A DNA stretch of 35,433 bases from an uncultured Candidatus Saccharibacteria bacterium (GCA_964552275.1 CAZKFS010000001.1:1-35433), one strand, 5' to 3'. Shown: positions 18,032 through 23,090, counted from the first letter of the stretch. A program made the numbers and translations. Notes: generated by a model from the letters alone, not told the origin.

Positions 18032-18379
18032 TTATTTCTTCTTAGCGTCAGTTGTAGCGGCCTTTGCAGATTGAGCAGCAGCTATCTCACCCTCTTTCTT
18101 CTTCTGCTCTAGCTCCTTCTGCATTTTACCTCCGTGTTTTATGAACTTTTTAGTAGGAGAAAACTCGCCTAGTCTGTGACCCACCATATCTTCATTTACG
18201 GAAACTTCAATATGAACCTTGCCGTTATGAACACCAAAAATAAAACCTACCATCTCAGGAGAGATCACGCATGCACGAGACCAAGTCTTAATAACCCCAG
18301 TTTCACTGGATTTTTTACCCTCAATTTTCTTGAGTAGTCTCTCGTCTACGTATGGACCTTTTTTAGATGATCTTGTCAT
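18032..18379 (-). CDS. rpsS: 30S ribosomal protein S19 (C-terminal extension)
   Basis: [29 protein letters not shown]. Confidence 0.95.
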
Positions 18380-18475
18380 TTTAATTTGTTGAAAACAAAA
18401 ACCACATTGTTAGTGGTACTGACTAGCTAATACCTCAAACAGAATGTATAAGACGTGTAGTCTTACGTGGCGTCT

Positions 18476-18504
18476 ATACTATACAAAATGCCTCAGAATG
18501 TCAA
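18476..18504 (-). promoter_or_regulatory. promoter TTGACA-17-TAGTAT upstream of rpsS
   Basis: Minus strand ttgacattctgaggcattttgtatagtat. It lies directly downstream of the UUCG-loop terminator of the RNA candidate. Confidence 0.55.
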
Positions 18505-18520
18505 CACATTTAATCAATGT

Positions 18521-18748
18521 AAGGAAAAGGCCTCCCGAAGGAGGCCGTGTTGGAGGGAGAGGGCCTAGAGCACCCCTGCGCCATGGGTGGTAGTCGCCCA
18601 AGGTAACTAGTATTTACCGGATTTTCGCAGTGCCCCAATCGACACAAGGACCATAGTTTTTCACTCTTTCATCAAACGAGTTGCAACTCGCTGAATCCCC
18701 AAGCGTTGCGGTCTGGTCCAAGGATGTTGCCACCACCTCTCCCCCAAA
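18521..18748 (-). ncRNA. unclassified G+C-rich structured RNA candidate (~225 nt) between rplB and rpsS
   Basis: No ORF longer than about 24 codons on either strand. Closing helix gggagagg (18555-18562) pairs with cctctccc (18736-18743). Second helix GGUGG/CCACC. Internal hairpins include CGAGU-UGCA-ACUCG. The minus-strand 3' end is GGCCUCC-UUCG-GGAGGCC plus UUUUCCUU (18521-18546). I counted 41/60 G+C in 18541-18600. Class unknown. Confidence 0.5.
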
Positions 18749-18785
18749 ATAAGACTATACTTTTTAATACATAAGTCAATTAAAC

Positions 18786-18816
18786 AAAAACACCGTTCGA
18801 GTTCGAACGGTGTTTT
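18786..18816. terminator. strong bidirectional terminator directly after the rplB stop
   Basis: aaaaacaccgttcga-gt-tcgaacggtgttttt, a perfect 11-bp stem with flanking A and T runs. Confidence 0.8.
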
Positions 18817-18821
18817 TGTTT

Positions 18822-19664
18822 TTACTTCTTTTTACCTACCTTCCTTCTACTTACGATGAATTTATTTGAATATTTCTTTGGAGTTCTAGATTTCTGTCCC
18901 TTACCTGTTGGTTTACCGTACACAGAGATAGCTCTCTTGCGTCCTCGGCCTTGTCTACCCTCTCCACCTCCGTATGGGTGATCAACTGGGTTTTGAGCAG
19001 TACCTCGAACTGTAGGGCGAATACCCAACCATCGTGATCGTCCAGCTTTTCCTAGGTTTACTAGTCTGTTTTCATTGTTTGAAACTTCTCCAACAGATGC
19101 CCATGCAGTGTCTTTTACTTTTCTAACTTCTGTTGAAGGAAGTTTGATATCCACGTAACCAGCGTCCTTTGCAATAACTTCTACGAAGTTTCCAGCTGAA
19201 CGAGCTAGTTTTGCTCCACCTTGTGGCTTAACCTCTACGTTGTAAACAAAAGTTCCAATAGTTATATTTTTAAGAGGTAATCTGTTTCCAGATTTTATTT
19301 CTGCTGTTTCAGATGTGATGAGTGTATCTCCAACTCTGACAGATGATGGTAGAAGAACATATCTCTTTGCACCGTCTCTGTACTGAGCAAGACCAATAAA
19401 TCCTGATCGGTTTGGATCGTATTCTACTGTTTTTATAGTATAAGGAACGTTTATTTTGTCGTATTTGAAATCAATCTCTCTAAACAGTCTTTTTGCTCCA
19501 CCTCCTTTGTGTCTAGTAGTTATTTTACCATGGTGGTTTCGGCCCATCTTTCTTCTAAAACCGTGAGTTAGTGACTTCACTGGTTCTGTAGCTGTAACAA
19601 AGTCACCAAAAGAGATGGTTGTCATTCCTCTACGACTTTTTGATGTTGGTTTATATCTCTTCAT
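18822..19664 (-). CDS. rplB: 50S ribosomal protein L2
   Basis: 280 aa with GGGAKRLFREIDF and HPYGGGEGR motifs. Confidence 0.95.
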   Translation of the reverse strand: MKRYKPTSKSRRGMTTISFGDFVTATEPVKSLTHGFRRKMGRNHHGKITTRHKGGGAKRLFREIDFKYDKINVPYTIKTVEYDPNRSGFIGLAQYRDGAKRYVLLPSSVRVGDTLITSETAEIKSGNRLPLKNITIGTFVYNVEVKPQGGAKLARSAGNFVEVIAKDAGYVDIKLPSTEVRKVKDTAWASVGEVSNNENRLVNLGKAGRSRWLGIRPTVRGTAQNPVDHPYGGGEGRQGRGRKRAISVYGKPTGKGQKSRTPKKYSNKFIVSRRKVGKKK

Positions 19665-19674
19665 GGTAATTTTA

Positions 19675-21307: not shown

Positions 21308-21391
21308 ATTATTTTGATTTCTTGGAAACATTTTTCGGACAGTAATGAGAAAAGTGTTTTTCCCAACATTGCCCATCGCTAGTCTCCTGAA

Positions 21392-21425
21392 TCCGCCTCT
21401 TCGGCGGACCCGCCGACGAGGCGGG
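21392..21425 (-). promoter_or_regulatory. two tandem GC-rich hairpins in the rplC 5' leader
   Basis: tccgcc-tcttc-ggcgga (21392-21408) and cccgcc-gacga-ggcggg (21409-21425), each a 6-bp stem with a 5-nt loop. Confidence 0.45.
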
Positions 21426-21449
21426 AAAGTCCATTTGAAAGACTTGACT

Positions 21450-21478
21450 ACATTAGCAGATATCGGTTTTTAATTCAA
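21450..21478 (-). promoter_or_regulatory. promoter module copy 2: TTGAAT-17-(TGc)TAATGT, upstream of rplC
   Basis: Minus strand ttgaattaaaaaccgatatctgctaatgt, similar to copies 1 and 3. Confidence 0.55.
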
Positions 21479-21545
21479 GTCCTTTTAAAATAAATAAAAA
21501 AAACCGTGAATCAGGCAGAAGCCAACCCATAGGTTTTGTGTGGTC

Positions 21546-21579
21546 CCGCGGGCTGGTGGGGTGCTCCCACCGCCCGCGG
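21546..21579 (-). other. 14-bp GC-rich hairpin 3' of the secreted-protein ORF (terminator-like, no U tract)
   Basis: ccgcgggc(t)ggtggg - gtgct - cccaccgcccgcgg. Confidence 0.5.
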
Positions 21580-21610
21580 TCATATGTGTTCTCGGTGGGG
21601 ACTTGAAGGA

Positions 21611-21970
21611 TCAGCCCACCGCGAACGAGCCCGTCGTGTTCGAGGTGCCAATCGCACCAACCCAGGCCGGCGCCGAGGAGTGTTGTCTGTCTCCCAGGCC
21701 GACGGTGTTGTTGGGGCGTATCGACATGTCGGCGATGGTGTCGACTTCCGGAAGGGCGTCCTCGTAGGTGTTGATCGAGTGTTGAACAGTAAATCCTGGC
21801 ATGACGACTTCCATCAAGGAGGGTTCCACCTGGACATCCTCCTCGATCATCGTCACGCTGCCGACCGCGATGGTGACGATGTTGTGCTTGTTGTCATCGA
21901 CCTTCTGGACCGGTGACGACGGAAGGAGCAGCGCGAACACCGCCCCGAGTAGAACCAAGAGCTTCCTCAT
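21611..21970 (-). CDS. small secreted hypothetical protein (119 aa) in a high-G+C insert between rpsJ and rplC
   Basis: AGGAGG lies 4 nt upstream of the ATG. Signal peptide MRKLLVLLGAVFALLLPSS. Third codon positions are visibly G/C-rich. I counted 43/60 G+C in 21541-21600 (3' hairpin region just outside the ORF) and 41/60 in 21661-21720 (inside the ORF). Confidence 0.65.
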   Translation of the reverse strand: MRKLLVLLGAVFALLLPSSPVQKVDDNKHNIVTIAVGSVTMIEEDVQVEPSLMEVVMPGFTVQHSINTYEDALPEVDTIADMSIRPNNTVGLGDRQHSSAPAWVGAIGTSNTTGSFAVG

Positions 21971-22051
21971 GAGTCCTCCTAATAGTTAGAACGAATGGTC
22001 ACCAGACCACCCTATTTCCTATGGTATAACAACAAATATTTAAGTGCAAAC

Positions 22052-22077
22052 AAAAAACCACCTCTCGGTGGTTTTTT
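22052..22077. terminator. terminator aaaaaaccacc-tctc-ggtggtttttt
   Basis: Same hairpin family as 23022-23047 and 34410-35. It lies after the rpsJ 3' element. Confidence 0.75.
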
Positions 22078-22087
22078 GTTTATTTCT

Positions 22088-22208
22088 GAGGATTTTTGTT
22101 GAAGTTCGAAGTTCGCAGTTTTTATGTACGACCAAAATGTACAAAAGTACATTGCGGGAGTAGATAAAACCGAGAACAAAGAAATTCTACAAAAAGACCG
22201 GAAATAAC
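22088..22208 (-). repeat. ~120-nt intergenic element abutting the rpsJ stop; homologous to 13725-13843
   Basis: See the 13725-13843 feature. Inner perfect hairpin aatgtac-aaaa-gtacatt (22136-22153). Outer stem gtttttat / ataaaac at the position equivalent to the 11-bp stem of the other copy. Confidence 0.75.
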
Positions 22209-22598: not shown

Positions 22599-22619
22599 GT
22601 CAATTTAGTTGTACCCCAG

Positions 22620-22648
22620 ATACTAGCAGATAATGGTTTTTTGTTCAA
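22620..22648 (-). promoter_or_regulatory. promoter module copy 3: TTGAAC-17-(TGc)TAGTAT, upstream of rpsJ
   Basis: Minus strand ttgaacaaaaaaccattatctgctagtat. Confidence 0.6.
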
Positions 22649-22678
22649 GGGGTGTGAACATTTTAATTCAATCTTATC

Positions 22679-22706
22679 TTGACAAAATGCAAACAACTGT
22701 TATAAT
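22679..22706 (+). promoter_or_regulatory. near-consensus promoter TTGACA-16-(TGt)TATAAT
   Basis: ttgacaaaatgcaaacaactgttataat. GGGAG follows at 22714-22718 and the ATG at 22726. Confidence 0.7.
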
Positions 22707-22725
22707 GTAATTAGGGAGTTGAAAA

Positions 22726-22926
22726 ATGTTAATCTGGATTTTGAGCACTGGGCTAACAGTACTACTGACCATATTCGGCACCATTTTCGTCGGGTCGGTA
22801 GTCGTCTGTACCGCATTGATGGGTGGAGACAAGAGAAATTCTGTGTACTCTTACTCACTTCAATCTCTGCTCGTTTCTTTGCTAATACTAATAGGACTCC
22901 TCGCACTCAAGGCAAAATTCGCTTGA
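22726..22926 (+). CDS. 66-aa two-TM hydrophobic peptide, antisense to the operon direction
   Basis: MLIWILSTGLTVLLTIFGTIFVGSVVVCTAL-MGGDKRNSVYSYSLQ-SLLVSLLILIGLLALKAKFA. It is the only one of three overlapping ORFs that has an SD plus an ATG. Confidence 0.6.
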   Translation: MLIWILSTGLTVLLTIFGTIFVGSVVVCTALMGGDKRNSVYSYSLQSLLVSLLILIGLLALKAKFA

Positions 22927-22978
22927 TGGTGGGTGGCCCTAAAAAGGATGTCCGCTAGAATTAACGAGTTCATCACGA

Positions 22979-23004
22979 GGGCTGCTCCGGCAGTCCTTTC
23001 TTTT
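22979..23004 (+). terminator. terminator of the small peptide transcript
   Basis: gggctgc-tccg-gcagtcc stem followed by tttctttt. Confidence 0.5.
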
Positions 23005-23021
23005 ATGTAAAATATCATTTC

Positions 23022-23047
23022 AAAAAACCACCTTTCGGTGGTTTTTT
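23022..23047. terminator. terminator aaaaaaccacc-tttc-ggtggtttttt after tuf
   Basis: Perfect 5-bp GC core extended by A/T runs. Confidence 0.75.
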
Positions 23048-23090
23048 GAAAACTTTTTAAAGTTAAGAATTCTTCTTGAAAGGGCTGTGA

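What the first reader, a model, noticed from the sequence alone, without database searches (positions are those of the whole stretch)
18521..18748. ORF-free, G+C-rich, highly structured ~225-nt RNA candidate between rplB and rpsS
L2 and S19 are normally adjacent, but here they are 442 nt apart. The central ~230 nt is G+C-rich (41/60 in 18541-18600), and the longest ORF on either strand is about 24 codons.
On the minus strand the segment ends in a textbook terminator, GGCCUCC-UUCG-GGAGGCC plus a U tract. A long-range 8-10 bp helix (GGGAGAGG / CCUCUCCC) joins its ends. A second helix is GGUGG/CCACC. Internal hairpins include CGAGU-UGCA-ACUCG and GCGC-AGGG-GUGC. A UUGGGG motif recurs twice, plus a UUGGG variant.
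It does not match the signatures I know for tmRNA, SRP RNA, RNase P RNA or common riboswitches. I could not find a convincing promoter, because the TTGACT at 18774-18779 has poor spacing to any -10. It may therefore be processed from rplB read-through or use a non-canonical promoter.
Basis: partly seen in the sequence, partly recalled or inferred. Interest (0 to 1): 0.65.

Follow-up and report, generated by a model that had tools for sequence, protein, structure and literature searches.

The report
Orphan RNA cassette between rplB and rpsS
The G+C-rich 225-base stretch is the one-off cargo of a small self-contained expression cassette, in a spot of the ribosomal-protein gene cluster where related bacteria carry ever-changing small protein genes; nothing shows it to be a conserved structured RNA.

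Summary
Most of the described sequence features are real: the 442-nt rplB–rpsS gap, 55% G+C, a strong minus-strand terminator and a stable 5'–3' closing helix. Two claims fail. "ORF-free" is wrong, because there is a 40-codon GTG ORF, about what shuffles give. "Highly structured" does not hold beyond the closing helix (whole-fold z about -1.4 to -1.9).

The window comes from a Parcubacteria/Zambryskibacteria-like genome. In this clade rplB ends one operon and rpsS starts another, and the junction is hypervariable (55 nt to about 3.8 kb). Close relatives carry 0–2 cassettes there, each with promoter, SD, small orphan ORF and terminator.

The nearest relative (L001, 97% identical L2) shares the window's cassette promoter and SD. 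It then encodes a 92-aa protein that has orthologues in L119 and L095. In the window that ORF has been replaced by about 197 nt of unrelated sequence.

This cargo matched nothing: 128 fetched loci, the exact-word scans of JGI metagenomes and IMG/VR, phages, plasmids, Rfam, and 5.8 billion protein clusters. Covariation therefore cannot be tested.

Best reading: a lineage-specific, probably untranslated transcript from a replaceable cassette. It could be a young relic or filler, or an orphan sRNA. Interest is low to moderate. The conserved rpsS leader next to it is the better RNA candidate.

The parts
18822..19664 (-). rplB (L2), last gene of the upstream operon
   Evidence: 280-aa ORF. Pfam Ribosomal_L2_N/C on the identical public gene.
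18782..18821 (.). Bidirectional intrinsic terminator directly after rplB
   Evidence: The scan, which lists it on the + strand, counts an 18-pair stem because the A-run and T-run pair with each other. The core hairpin is CACCGTTCGA..TCGAACGGTG, and the A-run/T-run flanks give a T tract in either direction. An equivalent terminator follows rplB in relatives.
18752..18779 (-). Cassette promoter: -35 TTGACT (18774-18779); -10 TATAGT (18754-18759, 14-nt spacer) or TAGTCT (18752-18757, 16-nt spacer)
   Evidence: Sequence. Orthologous element in L001; L119 has the same geometry with TTGACA as its -35; cassette 2 of L086 has TTGACT-N14-GATAGT. All stand upstream of SD+ORF. About 12% diverged from L001, against 25-33% at third codon positions.
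18522..18746 (-). Predicted transcript of about 225 nt (the cargo plus its terminator); this is the finding itself
   Evidence: Start inferred about 7 nt after the -10; end at the terminator U tract. The sequence is identical in the GenBank MAG and in 3 independent Logan assemblies.
18736..18746 (-). 5' G-run UGGGGGAGAGG: an SD look-alike retained from the ancestral cassette, and the 5' strand of the closing helix
   Evidence: Aligns with the TTTTGGAGG SD of L001 and L119. Pair probabilities 0.66-1.0.
18614..18736 (-). Best ORF: 40 codons, GTG start, probably not a real gene
   Evidence: Listed. Codon-position G+C is flat at 0.49/0.51/0.51, whereas real cargo ORFs have GC1 above GC2. Length matches shuffle expectation. 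No true homolog.
18677..18690 (.). Perfect 14-nt palindrome CGAGTTGCAACTCG (internal hairpin)
18552..18563 (-). 3' C-run CCCUCUCCCUCC: an anti-SD look-alike, and the 3' strand of the closing helix
18521..18546 (-). Intrinsic terminator GGCCUCC-UUCG-GGAGGCC plus UUUUCCUU
18476..18504 (-). rpsS promoter TTGACA-17-TAGTAT (not part of the candidate RNA)
   Evidence: Detected. TTGACATT...TTTTGTATAGTAT is invariant in the 5-sequence alignment and present in 35 loci.
18380..18469 (-). Conserved rpsS 5' leader with invariant ACCAC/GUGGU hairpin plus U tract (18401-18417)
18032..18379 (-). rpsS (S19), first gene of the downstream operon

Best explanation
The segment is the cargo of a small, self-contained expression cassette lodged in an operon break between rplB and rpsS.

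Shown:
- In this Parcubacteria (Zambryskibacteria-like) clade, rplB is followed by a terminator and rpsS has its own conserved promoter and leader.
- The space between them is a hypervariable slot. In close relatives it holds 0, 1 or 2 monocistronic cassettes, each with promoter, SD, small orphan ORF and intrinsic terminator.
- The window keeps the ancestral cassette promoter and SD. These are shared with L001, where they drive a 92-aa protein that also has orthologues in L119 and L095.
- Everything from just after the SD to the terminator, about 197 nt, has been replaced by unrelated G+C-rich sequence that exists nowhere else in the data searched.

Inferred:
- Transcription starts near 18746 and stops at the UUCG hairpin near 18522. 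That hairpin also insulates the rpsS promoter 25 nt downstream.
- The RNA closes on itself through an 11-bp helix. This helix pairs the leftover SD-like G-run with an anti-SD-like C-run just before the terminator, so the only ribosome-binding site is buried.
- The best ORF (39-40 codons, GUG start, poor SD spacing, flat codon-position G+C) is probably not translated.

The product is therefore most likely an untranslated, lineage-specific RNA. It is more likely a young replacement or relic riding on a still-active promoter than a member of a structured-RNA family. A role as an orphan sRNA is not excluded.
For: Context:
- 80 related loci were recovered by L2 similarity. The rplB–rpsS spacer ranges from 55 to 3811 nt in the 46 loci that hold both genes.
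- Cassettes with promoter, SD, ORF and terminator are seen in L001, L012, L013, L014, L039, L049, L086 (two cassettes), L105, L111, L117, L119 and L124. L003, L005, L009 and L087 have no cassette.

Replacement:
- A profile of the L001+L119 cassette aligns to the window only over the rplB terminator, promoter and SD (IGR 6-83) and over the distal terminator half, rpsS promoter and leader (IGR 281-425).
- The L001-type protein has orthologues in L119 and L095.
- Protein HMMs of the slot family find no window fragment.

Promoter under constraint: about 12% divergence against 25-33% at third codon positions.

Orphan status:
- blastn, nhmmer and tblastx against all fetched loci find nothing.
- Phages and plasmids give nothing real. 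IMG/VR gives 0 for 3 exact words. JGI metagenomes give 0 for one exact 20-mer.
- A six-frame protein search gives no hit at E <= 1.
- Rfam gives nothing, and there is no tRNA or tmRNA.

The sequence is real: the identical intergenic region appears in 4 independent assemblies.

Fold and coding tests.

Orphan G+C-rich cargo is normal here. A 119-aa orphan gene in the rpsJ|rplC slot of the same window also has no homolog among 5.8 billion clusters.
Against: - Streamlined CPR genomes keep little junk, and empty slots in relatives show that deletion is easy. Yet the promoter, a -27 kcal/mol closing helix and a textbook UUCG terminator are all intact, and G+C has not decayed towards the genomic 38%. 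This fits either recency or selection on the RNA.
- Coding cassettes of relatives lack such a 5'–3' closure, so the helix is special to this cargo.
- There is no expression data, and no sequence variation among the four copies. Neither neutrality nor constraint on the cargo can be measured.
- The origin of the 197 nt is unknown.
Confidence: 0.55

Rival explanations
1. A functional, lineage-specific trans-acting small RNA. It is expressed from the cassette promoter and stabilised by the 5'–3' closing helix and the terminator. It would act through its unpaired G-rich segments (UUGGGG) or through its SD/anti-SD look-alike ends, for example by pairing with C-rich RNA or competing for the 16S 3' end.
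For: - Own promoter under constraint and own strong terminator.
- Closing helix with pair probabilities of 0.66-1.0 (0.8 or more for all but the outermost pair) and p = 0.003 against whole-sequence shuffles.
- No codon periodicity and poor start-codon geometry (sequence).
- This helix is absent from the coding cassettes of relatives.
- G+C is kept at 55% in a 38% genome.
Against: - No homolog anywhere, so no conservation or covariation.
- The interior fold is no better defined than shuffles (z = -0.5), and whole-fold MFE z is only -1.4 to -1.9.
- The helix is explained by base-composition segregation (p = 0.17). Its 5' strand is simply the inherited SD.
- The UUGGGG repeat is marginal.
- The slot normally carries protein genes.
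Confidence: 0.22
2. An mRNA for a 39-40-aa microprotein (MVATSLDQTATLGDSASCNSFDERVKNYGPCVDWGTAKIR). It would be translated from GUG behind the retained SD, with the 3' C-run folding back to shut off translation of the finished transcript.
For: - The slot carries small proteins in relatives, down to 51 aa in L014, and a GTG start is used by L086 cassette 1.
- GGAG lies 5 nt before the second GUG (sequence).
- The SD is inherited from a coding cassette.
Against: - Codon-position G+C is flat (0.49/0.51/0.51), whereas GC1 exceeds GC2 by 0.06-0.23 (about 0.16 on average) in the 13 real cargo ORFs.
- The ORF length equals chance expectation.
- 67 nt lie between the stop codon and the terminator hairpin, against about 10-25 nt in several relatives (L012, L013, L014, L039, L049).
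- The best SD core, GAGGUG, overlaps the first GUG.
- No homolog was found. The single hit, at E = 2e-4, is a summed match to a 14-aa tandem repeat in a BAH-domain protein. There is no Pfam match.
Confidence: 0.15
3. A miniature mobile element, or a captured fragment of foreign high-G+C DNA, whose imperfect terminal inverted repeats (TGGGGGAGAGG / CCTCTCCC-TCCA) produce the 'closing helix'.
For: - About 200 bp in size, with inverted ends and a G+C content foreign to the genome.
- It abruptly replaces an ancestral ORF.
Against: - No second copy in the 35-kb window or in about 128 related loci.
- No target-site duplication at the ends (sequence).
- No match in phage, plasmid, IMG/VR or JGI data.
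- No protein-coding remnant in any frame.
- The left 'repeat' is the inherited SD.
Confidence: 0.06
4. A cis-acting leader or attenuator that regulates rpsS and the downstream ribosomal protein genes.
For: It sits inside the ribosomal protein cluster and ends in a terminator upstream of rpsS.
Against: - A conserved promoter (18476-18504) and the truly conserved leader (18380-18469) lie downstream of its terminator.
- The segment is absent from every relative, whereas that promoter and leader are retained.
Confidence: 0.02

Closest known systems
Species-specific trans-encoded bacterial sRNA genes (free-standing promoter plus Rho-independent terminator, 50-300 nt)
   Same: Independent promoter, strong intrinsic terminator, length of about 225 nt, no convincing ORF, 5'/3' closure.
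   Different: No conservation even in a relative with 97% identical L2. No expression or target evidence. The unit sits on a promoter and SD inherited from a protein-coding cassette.
Flexible genomic islets or replacement hot spots between conserved genes, in which cargo is swapped between conserved flanks
   Same: A fixed chromosomal site with conserved flanks (rplB terminator and promoter on one side, rpsS promoter on the other). Unrelated cargo in close relatives; empty in some.
   Different: Tiny scale (0.2-1.3 kb). Each cargo is a single promoter-to-terminator unit. The site lies in the middle of the ribosomal-protein gene cluster. No integrase, tRNA or repeats were seen.
Autoregulatory ribosomal-protein leaders (for example the E. 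coli S10 leader bound by L4, or the spc operon site bound by S8)
   Same: A structured-looking RNA inside a ribosomal-protein cluster.
   Different: It is separated from rpsS by its own terminator and by the rpsS promoter, and it is not conserved. The element that does fit this class is the neighbouring leader at 18380-18469.
hok-type type I toxin mRNAs with fold-back inhibition (the 5' end pairs with the 3' end to bury the SD)
   Same: A long-range 5'–3' helix that buries the SD and start region of a short ORF.
   Different: The peptide is hydrophilic, not a membrane toxin. No antisense RNA promoter was found, and there is no homology.
6S RNA and other ~200-nt RNAs closed by a terminal helix
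   Same: Size and terminal helix.
   Different: No covariance-model hit at E <= 10. No conserved central bubble can be defined, and the RNA is not conserved.

Membership tests
Any Rfam 15 family (4227 models, including 6S, SRP, RNase P, tmRNA, riboswitches, ribozymes, r-protein leaders) | Covariance-model score at or above the family's gathering threshold | tested here: not met
   0 hits at gathering score in the whole window. In E-value mode on 601 nt and on 251 nt, the only hits over the cargo are noise, with Atu_C8 best at 17.3 bits against a threshold of 50, driven by the terminator.
tmRNA / tRNA-like RNAs | tRNA-like acceptor and T-arm domain (plus a tag reading frame for tmRNA) | tested here: not met
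   ARAGORN finds no tRNA or tmRNA in the window.
Conserved structured ncRNA (generic criterion) | Homologs in other genomes with compensatory base changes supporting the fold | tested here: not met
   No homolog in 80+ syntenic loci from species-representative genomes, the 17 true rpsS-leader loci among the 37 metagenome hits (none of the 37 matched), IMG/VR, phages or plasmids. The four copies available are identical.
Conserved structured ncRNA (generic criterion) | Thermodynamic stability or definition clearly beyond shuffled controls | tested here: inconclusive
   MFE z is -1.85 (p about 0.05), or -1.43 without the terminator. Ensemble diversity z is -0.5. Only the closing helix stands out, at p = 0.003, falling to p = 0.17 under a composition-matched local shuffle.
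Free-standing sRNA gene | Own promoter | tested here: met
   In silico only. TTGACT-N14-TATAGT (or N16-TAGTCT) is orthologous to the L001 cassette promoter, and L119 has the same geometry with TTGACA. It is more conserved than synonymous sites.
Free-standing sRNA gene | Rho-independent terminator at the 3' end | tested here: met
   7-bp stem with 6 G-C pairs, UUCG loop, U tract.
Free-standing sRNA gene | A discrete, stable transcript is detected | not testable with these tools
   No transcriptome data available.
Slot-resident small-protein family (motifs NP[VI]..A[IV] and AWExY) of the relatives | Significant match to the family HMM in some reading frame | tested here: not met
   No window fragment at E <= 10, at E <= 20 after iteration, or among the best 20 matches to the L001+L119 profile (search run to E <= 1000).
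Ribosomal-protein leader (cis-regulator of rpsS) | Part of the regulated mRNA and co-conserved with the gene | tested here: not met
   A terminator and the rpsS promoter lie between it and rpsS. It is absent from all relatives, which retain the true leader.
MITE-like mobile element | Terminal inverted repeats, target-site duplication and multiple copies | tested here: not met
   The ends form an imperfect 11-12-bp inverted repeat. There is no flanking duplication and no second copy in the window or fetched loci. The rest of the source genome could not be searched.
hok-like type I toxin mRNA | A short hydrophobic toxin ORF plus 5'–3' fold-back and an antisense RNA | tested here: not met
   The fold-back is present, but the peptide is hydrophilic and no antisense promoter was found in the scan.

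The most novel reading that the evidence does not exclude
A protein-coding cargo in a ready-made promoter-to-terminator 'expression slot' was replaced by a new RNA gene. The result would be a lineage-specific regulatory RNA in a CPR bacterium. Its SD look-alike 5' end and anti-SD look-alike 3' end form a clamp, and its G-rich single strands would act on C-rich RNAs or on the ribosome. That would be a caught-in-the-act case of sRNA birth inside the ribosomal-protein cluster.
Probability: 0.15. Interest if true: 0.55.

Novelty: new member of a known kind. Interest (0 to 1): 0.28.

Why it matters
For the finding itself, little. It is a single-lineage sequence with no homologs, so it cannot anchor a new RNA family and cannot be tested by comparative methods.

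The context is more interesting. In this Parcubacteria clade the normally contiguous S10 ribosomal-protein operon is cut into separately promoted pieces. The cuts (tuf|rpsJ, rpsJ|rplC, rplB|rpsS) hold small, G+C-rich, fast-turnover orphan cassettes.

That makes the junctions a natural place to study gene turnover, and possibly gene or sRNA birth, in streamlined symbiont genomes. It also exposes a conserved, uncatalogued rpsS leader that could be a new ribosomal-protein autoregulatory element.

The case is also a caution. In A+T-rich genomes, "G+C-rich and ORF-poor" does not on its own indicate a structured RNA.

Tried and rejected
- Rfam at gathering score and at E <= 10 on 601 nt and 251 nt: only noise. 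ARAGORN: nothing.
- blastn, blastn-short, nhmmer and tblastx of the cargo against 80 genome loci, 10 look-up loci and 37 metagenome loci: only the flanks match.
- Phage and plasmid BLAST: only chance 26-33-nt hits, or none.
- Exact-word scans: three in IMG/VR and one in JGI metagenomes, all zero. These only detect near-identical copies.
- Six-frame concatenated protein search of 5.8 billion clusters: none at E <= 1.
- Exhaustive HMMER search with the 40-aa ORF against 1.84 billion representatives: one hit, at E = 2e-4, rejected as a summed match to a 14-aa tandem repeat in a BAH-domain protein.
- A decayed member of the slot's small-protein family: no HMM signal. The ENPV and NAW tripeptide-like resemblances seen by eye are in the wrong order, so this was rejected.
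- Closer relatives, for variation: the 90% clusters of L2 and S19 were inspected and the nearest members fetched (L001 96.8%, L086 95.4%, L087 93.9%, L128). None has the cargo. The three Logan contigs with identical L2 carry an identical intergenic region, so there is no variation to use.
- SD-sequestering closure as a general cassette feature: not seen in 8 coding cassettes.
- An alternative genetic code (UGA as sense): rejected, because cargo ORFs of relatives end in TGA.
- A single-sequence covariance-model search was considered. It was not run, because calibration time for about 200 positions is prohibitive and the chance of a hit is negligible without any sequence similarity.
- Literature searches for CPR ribosomal-operon RNAs gave nothing specific.

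Full report
**1. What is in the sequence**

The ribosomal-protein genes lie on the minus strand. rplB is at 18822-19664 and rpsS at 18032-18379, leaving a 442-nt gap. The flagged stretch, 18521-18748, is 54.8% G+C in a window that averages about 38%, and 41 of 60 bases in 18541-18600 are G or C.

The pattern scan found three relevant sites:
- a hairpin directly after rplB (18782-18821), flanked by an A-run and a T-run so that it can terminate in both directions (the scan counts 18 pairs);
- the minus-strand terminator GGCCTCC-TTCG-GGAGGCC-TTTTCCTT (18546-18521);
- a minus-strand promoter, TTGACA-17-TAGTAT (18504-18476), only 25 nt further on.

So is the CGAGUUGCAACUCG hairpin, a perfect 14-nt palindrome at 18677-18690.

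"Longest ORF about 24 codons" is wrong. A 40-codon GTG ORF (18614-18736, minus) lies inside the segment. That is exactly what dinucleotide shuffles give (43 +/- 13 codons).

**2. Is it more structured than chance?**

Only in one respect. I folded the inferred transcript, 18746 to 18522.
- The MFE is -86.2 kcal/mol, z = -1.85 (p about 0.05).
- Without the terminator, z = -1.43.
- Ensemble diversity is ordinary, z = -0.5.

The 11-bp closing helix is UGGGGGAGAGG (18746-18736) paired with CCCUCUCCCUCC (18563-18552). Its pair probabilities are 0.66-1.0 and its duplex energy is -27.1 kcal/mol. That is rarer than 99.7% of whole-sequence shuffles.

The significance falls to p = 0.17 if only the C-rich last 40 nt are shuffled. 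The signal is therefore a G-run at one end and a C-run at the other. The UUGGGG recurrence is marginal, p about 0.03 before any correction.

**3. Known RNA families**

Rfam 15 gives no hit at gathering thresholds anywhere in the 35-kb window. In permissive mode nothing credible covers the cargo. The best is Atu_C8 at 17 bits against a threshold of 50, which comes from the terminator. ARAGORN finds no tRNA or tmRNA.

**4. Organism and synteny**

L2-based retrieval from species-representative genomes gave 80 loci at 70-97% L2 identity. All are Parcubacteria, Zambryskibacteria or Paceibacterota MAGs. The source record is GCA_021733565.1, contig JAKFZD010000055.1. The 442-nt spacer is base-for-base identical in three independent Logan assemblies (SRR10388245, SRR10388236, SRR10388246). 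It is therefore not an assembly artefact, but it offers no variation to analyse.

The rplB–rpsS spacer is extraordinarily variable. It ranges from 55 to 3811 nt in the 46 loci that hold both genes, and rpsS is absent from the downstream DNA fetched (up to 4 kb; some contigs end sooner) in the remaining loci. In more distant relatives rplJ–rplL (plus an MscS-like gene), or rplS, directly follow rplB. The junction is thus an operon break throughout the clade.

**5. What is conserved and what is not**

blastn and nhmmer with the window's spacer recover only two parts from relatives. One is the rpsS-proximal ~125 nt (18504-18380: promoter plus 5' leader). The other, found in L001 only, is the rplB terminator plus about 40 nt after it.

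The alignment shows an invariant TTGACATT-N8-TTTTGTATAGTAT promoter. It also shows a leader with an invariant AAGUCAGUACCAC-loop-GUGGUUUU hairpin. The G+C-rich cargo matches nothing, even in L001 (97% L2) or L086 (95%).

A second metagenome scan used the leader motif and added 37 loci. Seventeen are genuine rpsS leaders, with spacers of 449-1322 nt in the 11 that also hold rplB, and none has the cargo.

**6. The slot model**

Reading the spacers of close relatives shows a repeated architecture:
- the rplB terminator;
- then 0, 1 or 2 units, each consisting of a sigma-70-type promoter, an SD, a small ORF of 51-180 aa and an intrinsic terminator;
- then the rpsS promoter and leader.

The cargo ORFs have no Pfam domain. 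They are G+C-rich (0.45-0.59) and show normal coding periodicity, with GC1 above GC2 by about 0.16 on average (range 0.06-0.23). Many belong to one fast-evolving family. An iterative HMM converges on 11 members, and L001, L119 and L095 form an orthologous subgroup.

L003, L005, L009 and L087 have no cassette.

The same window has two more such junction inserts:
- a 55-65% G+C cassette with a 119-aa, signal-peptide-bearing orphan gene between rpsJ and rplC (21611-21970), whose only match among 5.8 billion clusters is itself;
- a plus-strand unit between tuf and rpsJ, with a perfect promoter and a 66-aa hydrophobic ORF.

High G+C and lack of homologs are therefore the norm for cargo at these junctions. 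They are not a mark of RNA structure.

**7. The window's cassette is a replacement**

The window and L001 share the post-terminator promoter: TTGACTTATGT(A/C)TTAAAAAGTATA(G/A)TCTT, followed by TTTTGG of the SD. L119 has the same arrangement with TTGACA as its -35, and cassette 2 of L086 has TTGACT-N14-GATAGT.

This promoter is about 12% diverged between the window and L001. Third codon positions of rplB and rpsS differ by 25-33%. The promoter is therefore under constraint.

In L001 and L119 the promoter and SD drive orthologous proteins (MTSEFAM...AWEEYQK), and even the terminator is conserved. A profile of those two cassettes aligns to the window only at IGR 6-83 and 281-425. These correspond to roughly 18816-18739 and 18541-18397. 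The profile skips the roughly 197 nt in between.

The window lineage therefore replaced the ancestral coding region, from just after the SD to the terminator, with unrelated sequence. Extreme decay in situ is unlikely, because the more distant pair L001/L119 remains readily alignable across the ORF, with a long near-identical stretch at its 3' end.

**8. Is the cargo coding?**

Probably not.
- The 40-codon ORF has flat codon-position G+C (0.49/0.51/0.51). No frame of the cargo shows periodicity.
- The best SD core, GAGGUG, abuts the first GUG. Only the weaker GGAG has usable spacing, 5 nt to the second GUG.
- The stop codon lies 67 nt before the terminator, against about 10-25 nt in several relatives (L012, L013, L014, L039, L049).
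- A six-frame search of 5.8 billion protein clusters found nothing at E <= 1.
- An exhaustive HMMER search with the peptide gave one hit, at E = 2e-4. It is a summed match to a 14-residue tandem repeat in a BAH-domain protein and was dismissed.

**9. Other origins**

- There is no second copy in the window or in any fetched locus, and no target-site duplication.
- There are no phage, plasmid or IMG/VR matches, and no exact 20-mer match in JGI metagenomes.
- The donor of the 197 nt is unknown.

**10. Most likely mechanism**

Shown: the promoter is conserved, the terminator is strong, and the cargo is an orphan replacement.

Inferred: transcription starts near 18746 and ends near 18522. The terminator shields the rpsS promoter from upstream transcription. 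The RNA clamps its leftover SD to an anti-SD-like C-run, which leaves it untranslated.

Sequence alone cannot tell whether this RNA does anything. I rate the readings as follows:
- a young, functionless or function-unknown replacement: about 0.55;
- an orphan regulatory sRNA: about 0.2;
- a microprotein mRNA: about 0.15;
- a mobile or foreign fragment: about 0.06;
- an rpsS leader: negligible.

**11. Comparison with known systems and verdict**

The unit has the anatomy of a free-standing sRNA gene and sits in what behaves like a miniature replacement islet. It fails the tests for every catalogued RNA family, for a ribosomal-protein leader, for the slot's own protein family, for a MITE, and for a hok-type mRNA.

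It is a new, single-lineage member of a known kind: an orphan transcription unit in a variable islet. It is not a new class of structured RNA.

The more promising RNA element in the region is the conserved rpsS leader at 18380-18469.

Noticed in passing
window 18380-18504 (minus): A conserved rpsS promoter (TTGACATT-N8-TTTTGTATAGTAT) and a ~90-nt 5' leader. The leader has an AAGUCAGUACCAC-loop-GUGGUUUUU hairpin plus U tract (18401-18417); its ACCAC/GUGGU stem is invariant in the 20 sequences aligned, out of 29 distinct leaders recovered from related genomes and metagenomes. A variable upstream hairpin shows compensatory changes by eye, and a variable hairpin sits downstream. No obvious SD precedes the rpsS ATG. 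There is no Rfam match. It is a candidate new ribosomal-protein leader or attenuator.
   Followed up: partly
L001:4925-5203, L119 (spacer 55-357), L095, L086:3031-3348, and others: In relatives the rplB|rpsS slot holds a fast-evolving small-protein family of about 90-140 aa, with recurring motifs NP[VI]..A[IV] and AWExY[QE]K. It has no Pfam domain. An iterative HMM gathers 11 members, and L001, L119 and L095 are orthologous.
   Followed up: partly
window 21377-22208 (minus); ORF 21611-21970: The rpsJ|rplC junction holds a 55-65% G+C cassette with a strong SD (AGGAGG). It encodes a 119-aa ORF with a signal-peptide-like N-terminus and GC3 of 0.80. The ORF is a true orphan, matching only itself among 5.8 billion clusters.
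   Followed up: partly
window 22599-23090 (plus strand unit): Between tuf and rpsJ, on the opposite strand, lies a perfect extended promoter TTGACA-16-TATAAT (22679-22706). It is followed by a 66-aa strongly hydrophobic ORF (22726-22926) and terminators at 22977-22998 and 23018-23051. This is a small membrane peptide gene or a toxin-like unit.
   Followed up: no
window 22620-22648 and 21450-21478 (minus): The promoters in front of rpsJ and rplC are near-duplicates: TTGAAY-N17-TARTRT, sharing the spacer AAAAACCnnTATCTGC. This suggests promoter duplication when the operon was split. G+C-rich hairpins lie in the rplC leader, around 21380-21440.
   Followed up: no
window 19665-19669: The window differs from the public record JAKFZD010000055.1, and from a Logan contig, at three clustered bases immediately upstream of the rplB ATG. 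The window reads AAAATTACCATG and the record reads AAAAATAATATG. The other ~5.3 kb compared are identical.
   Followed up: partly
L025-L074 (many), downstream of rplB: In more distant relatives rplJ–rplL, a conserved ~185-aa protein without a Pfam domain and an MscS-like membrane protein lie between rplB and rpsS. In others rplS lies there instead. The junction is therefore an ancient rearrangement point.
   Followed up: partly
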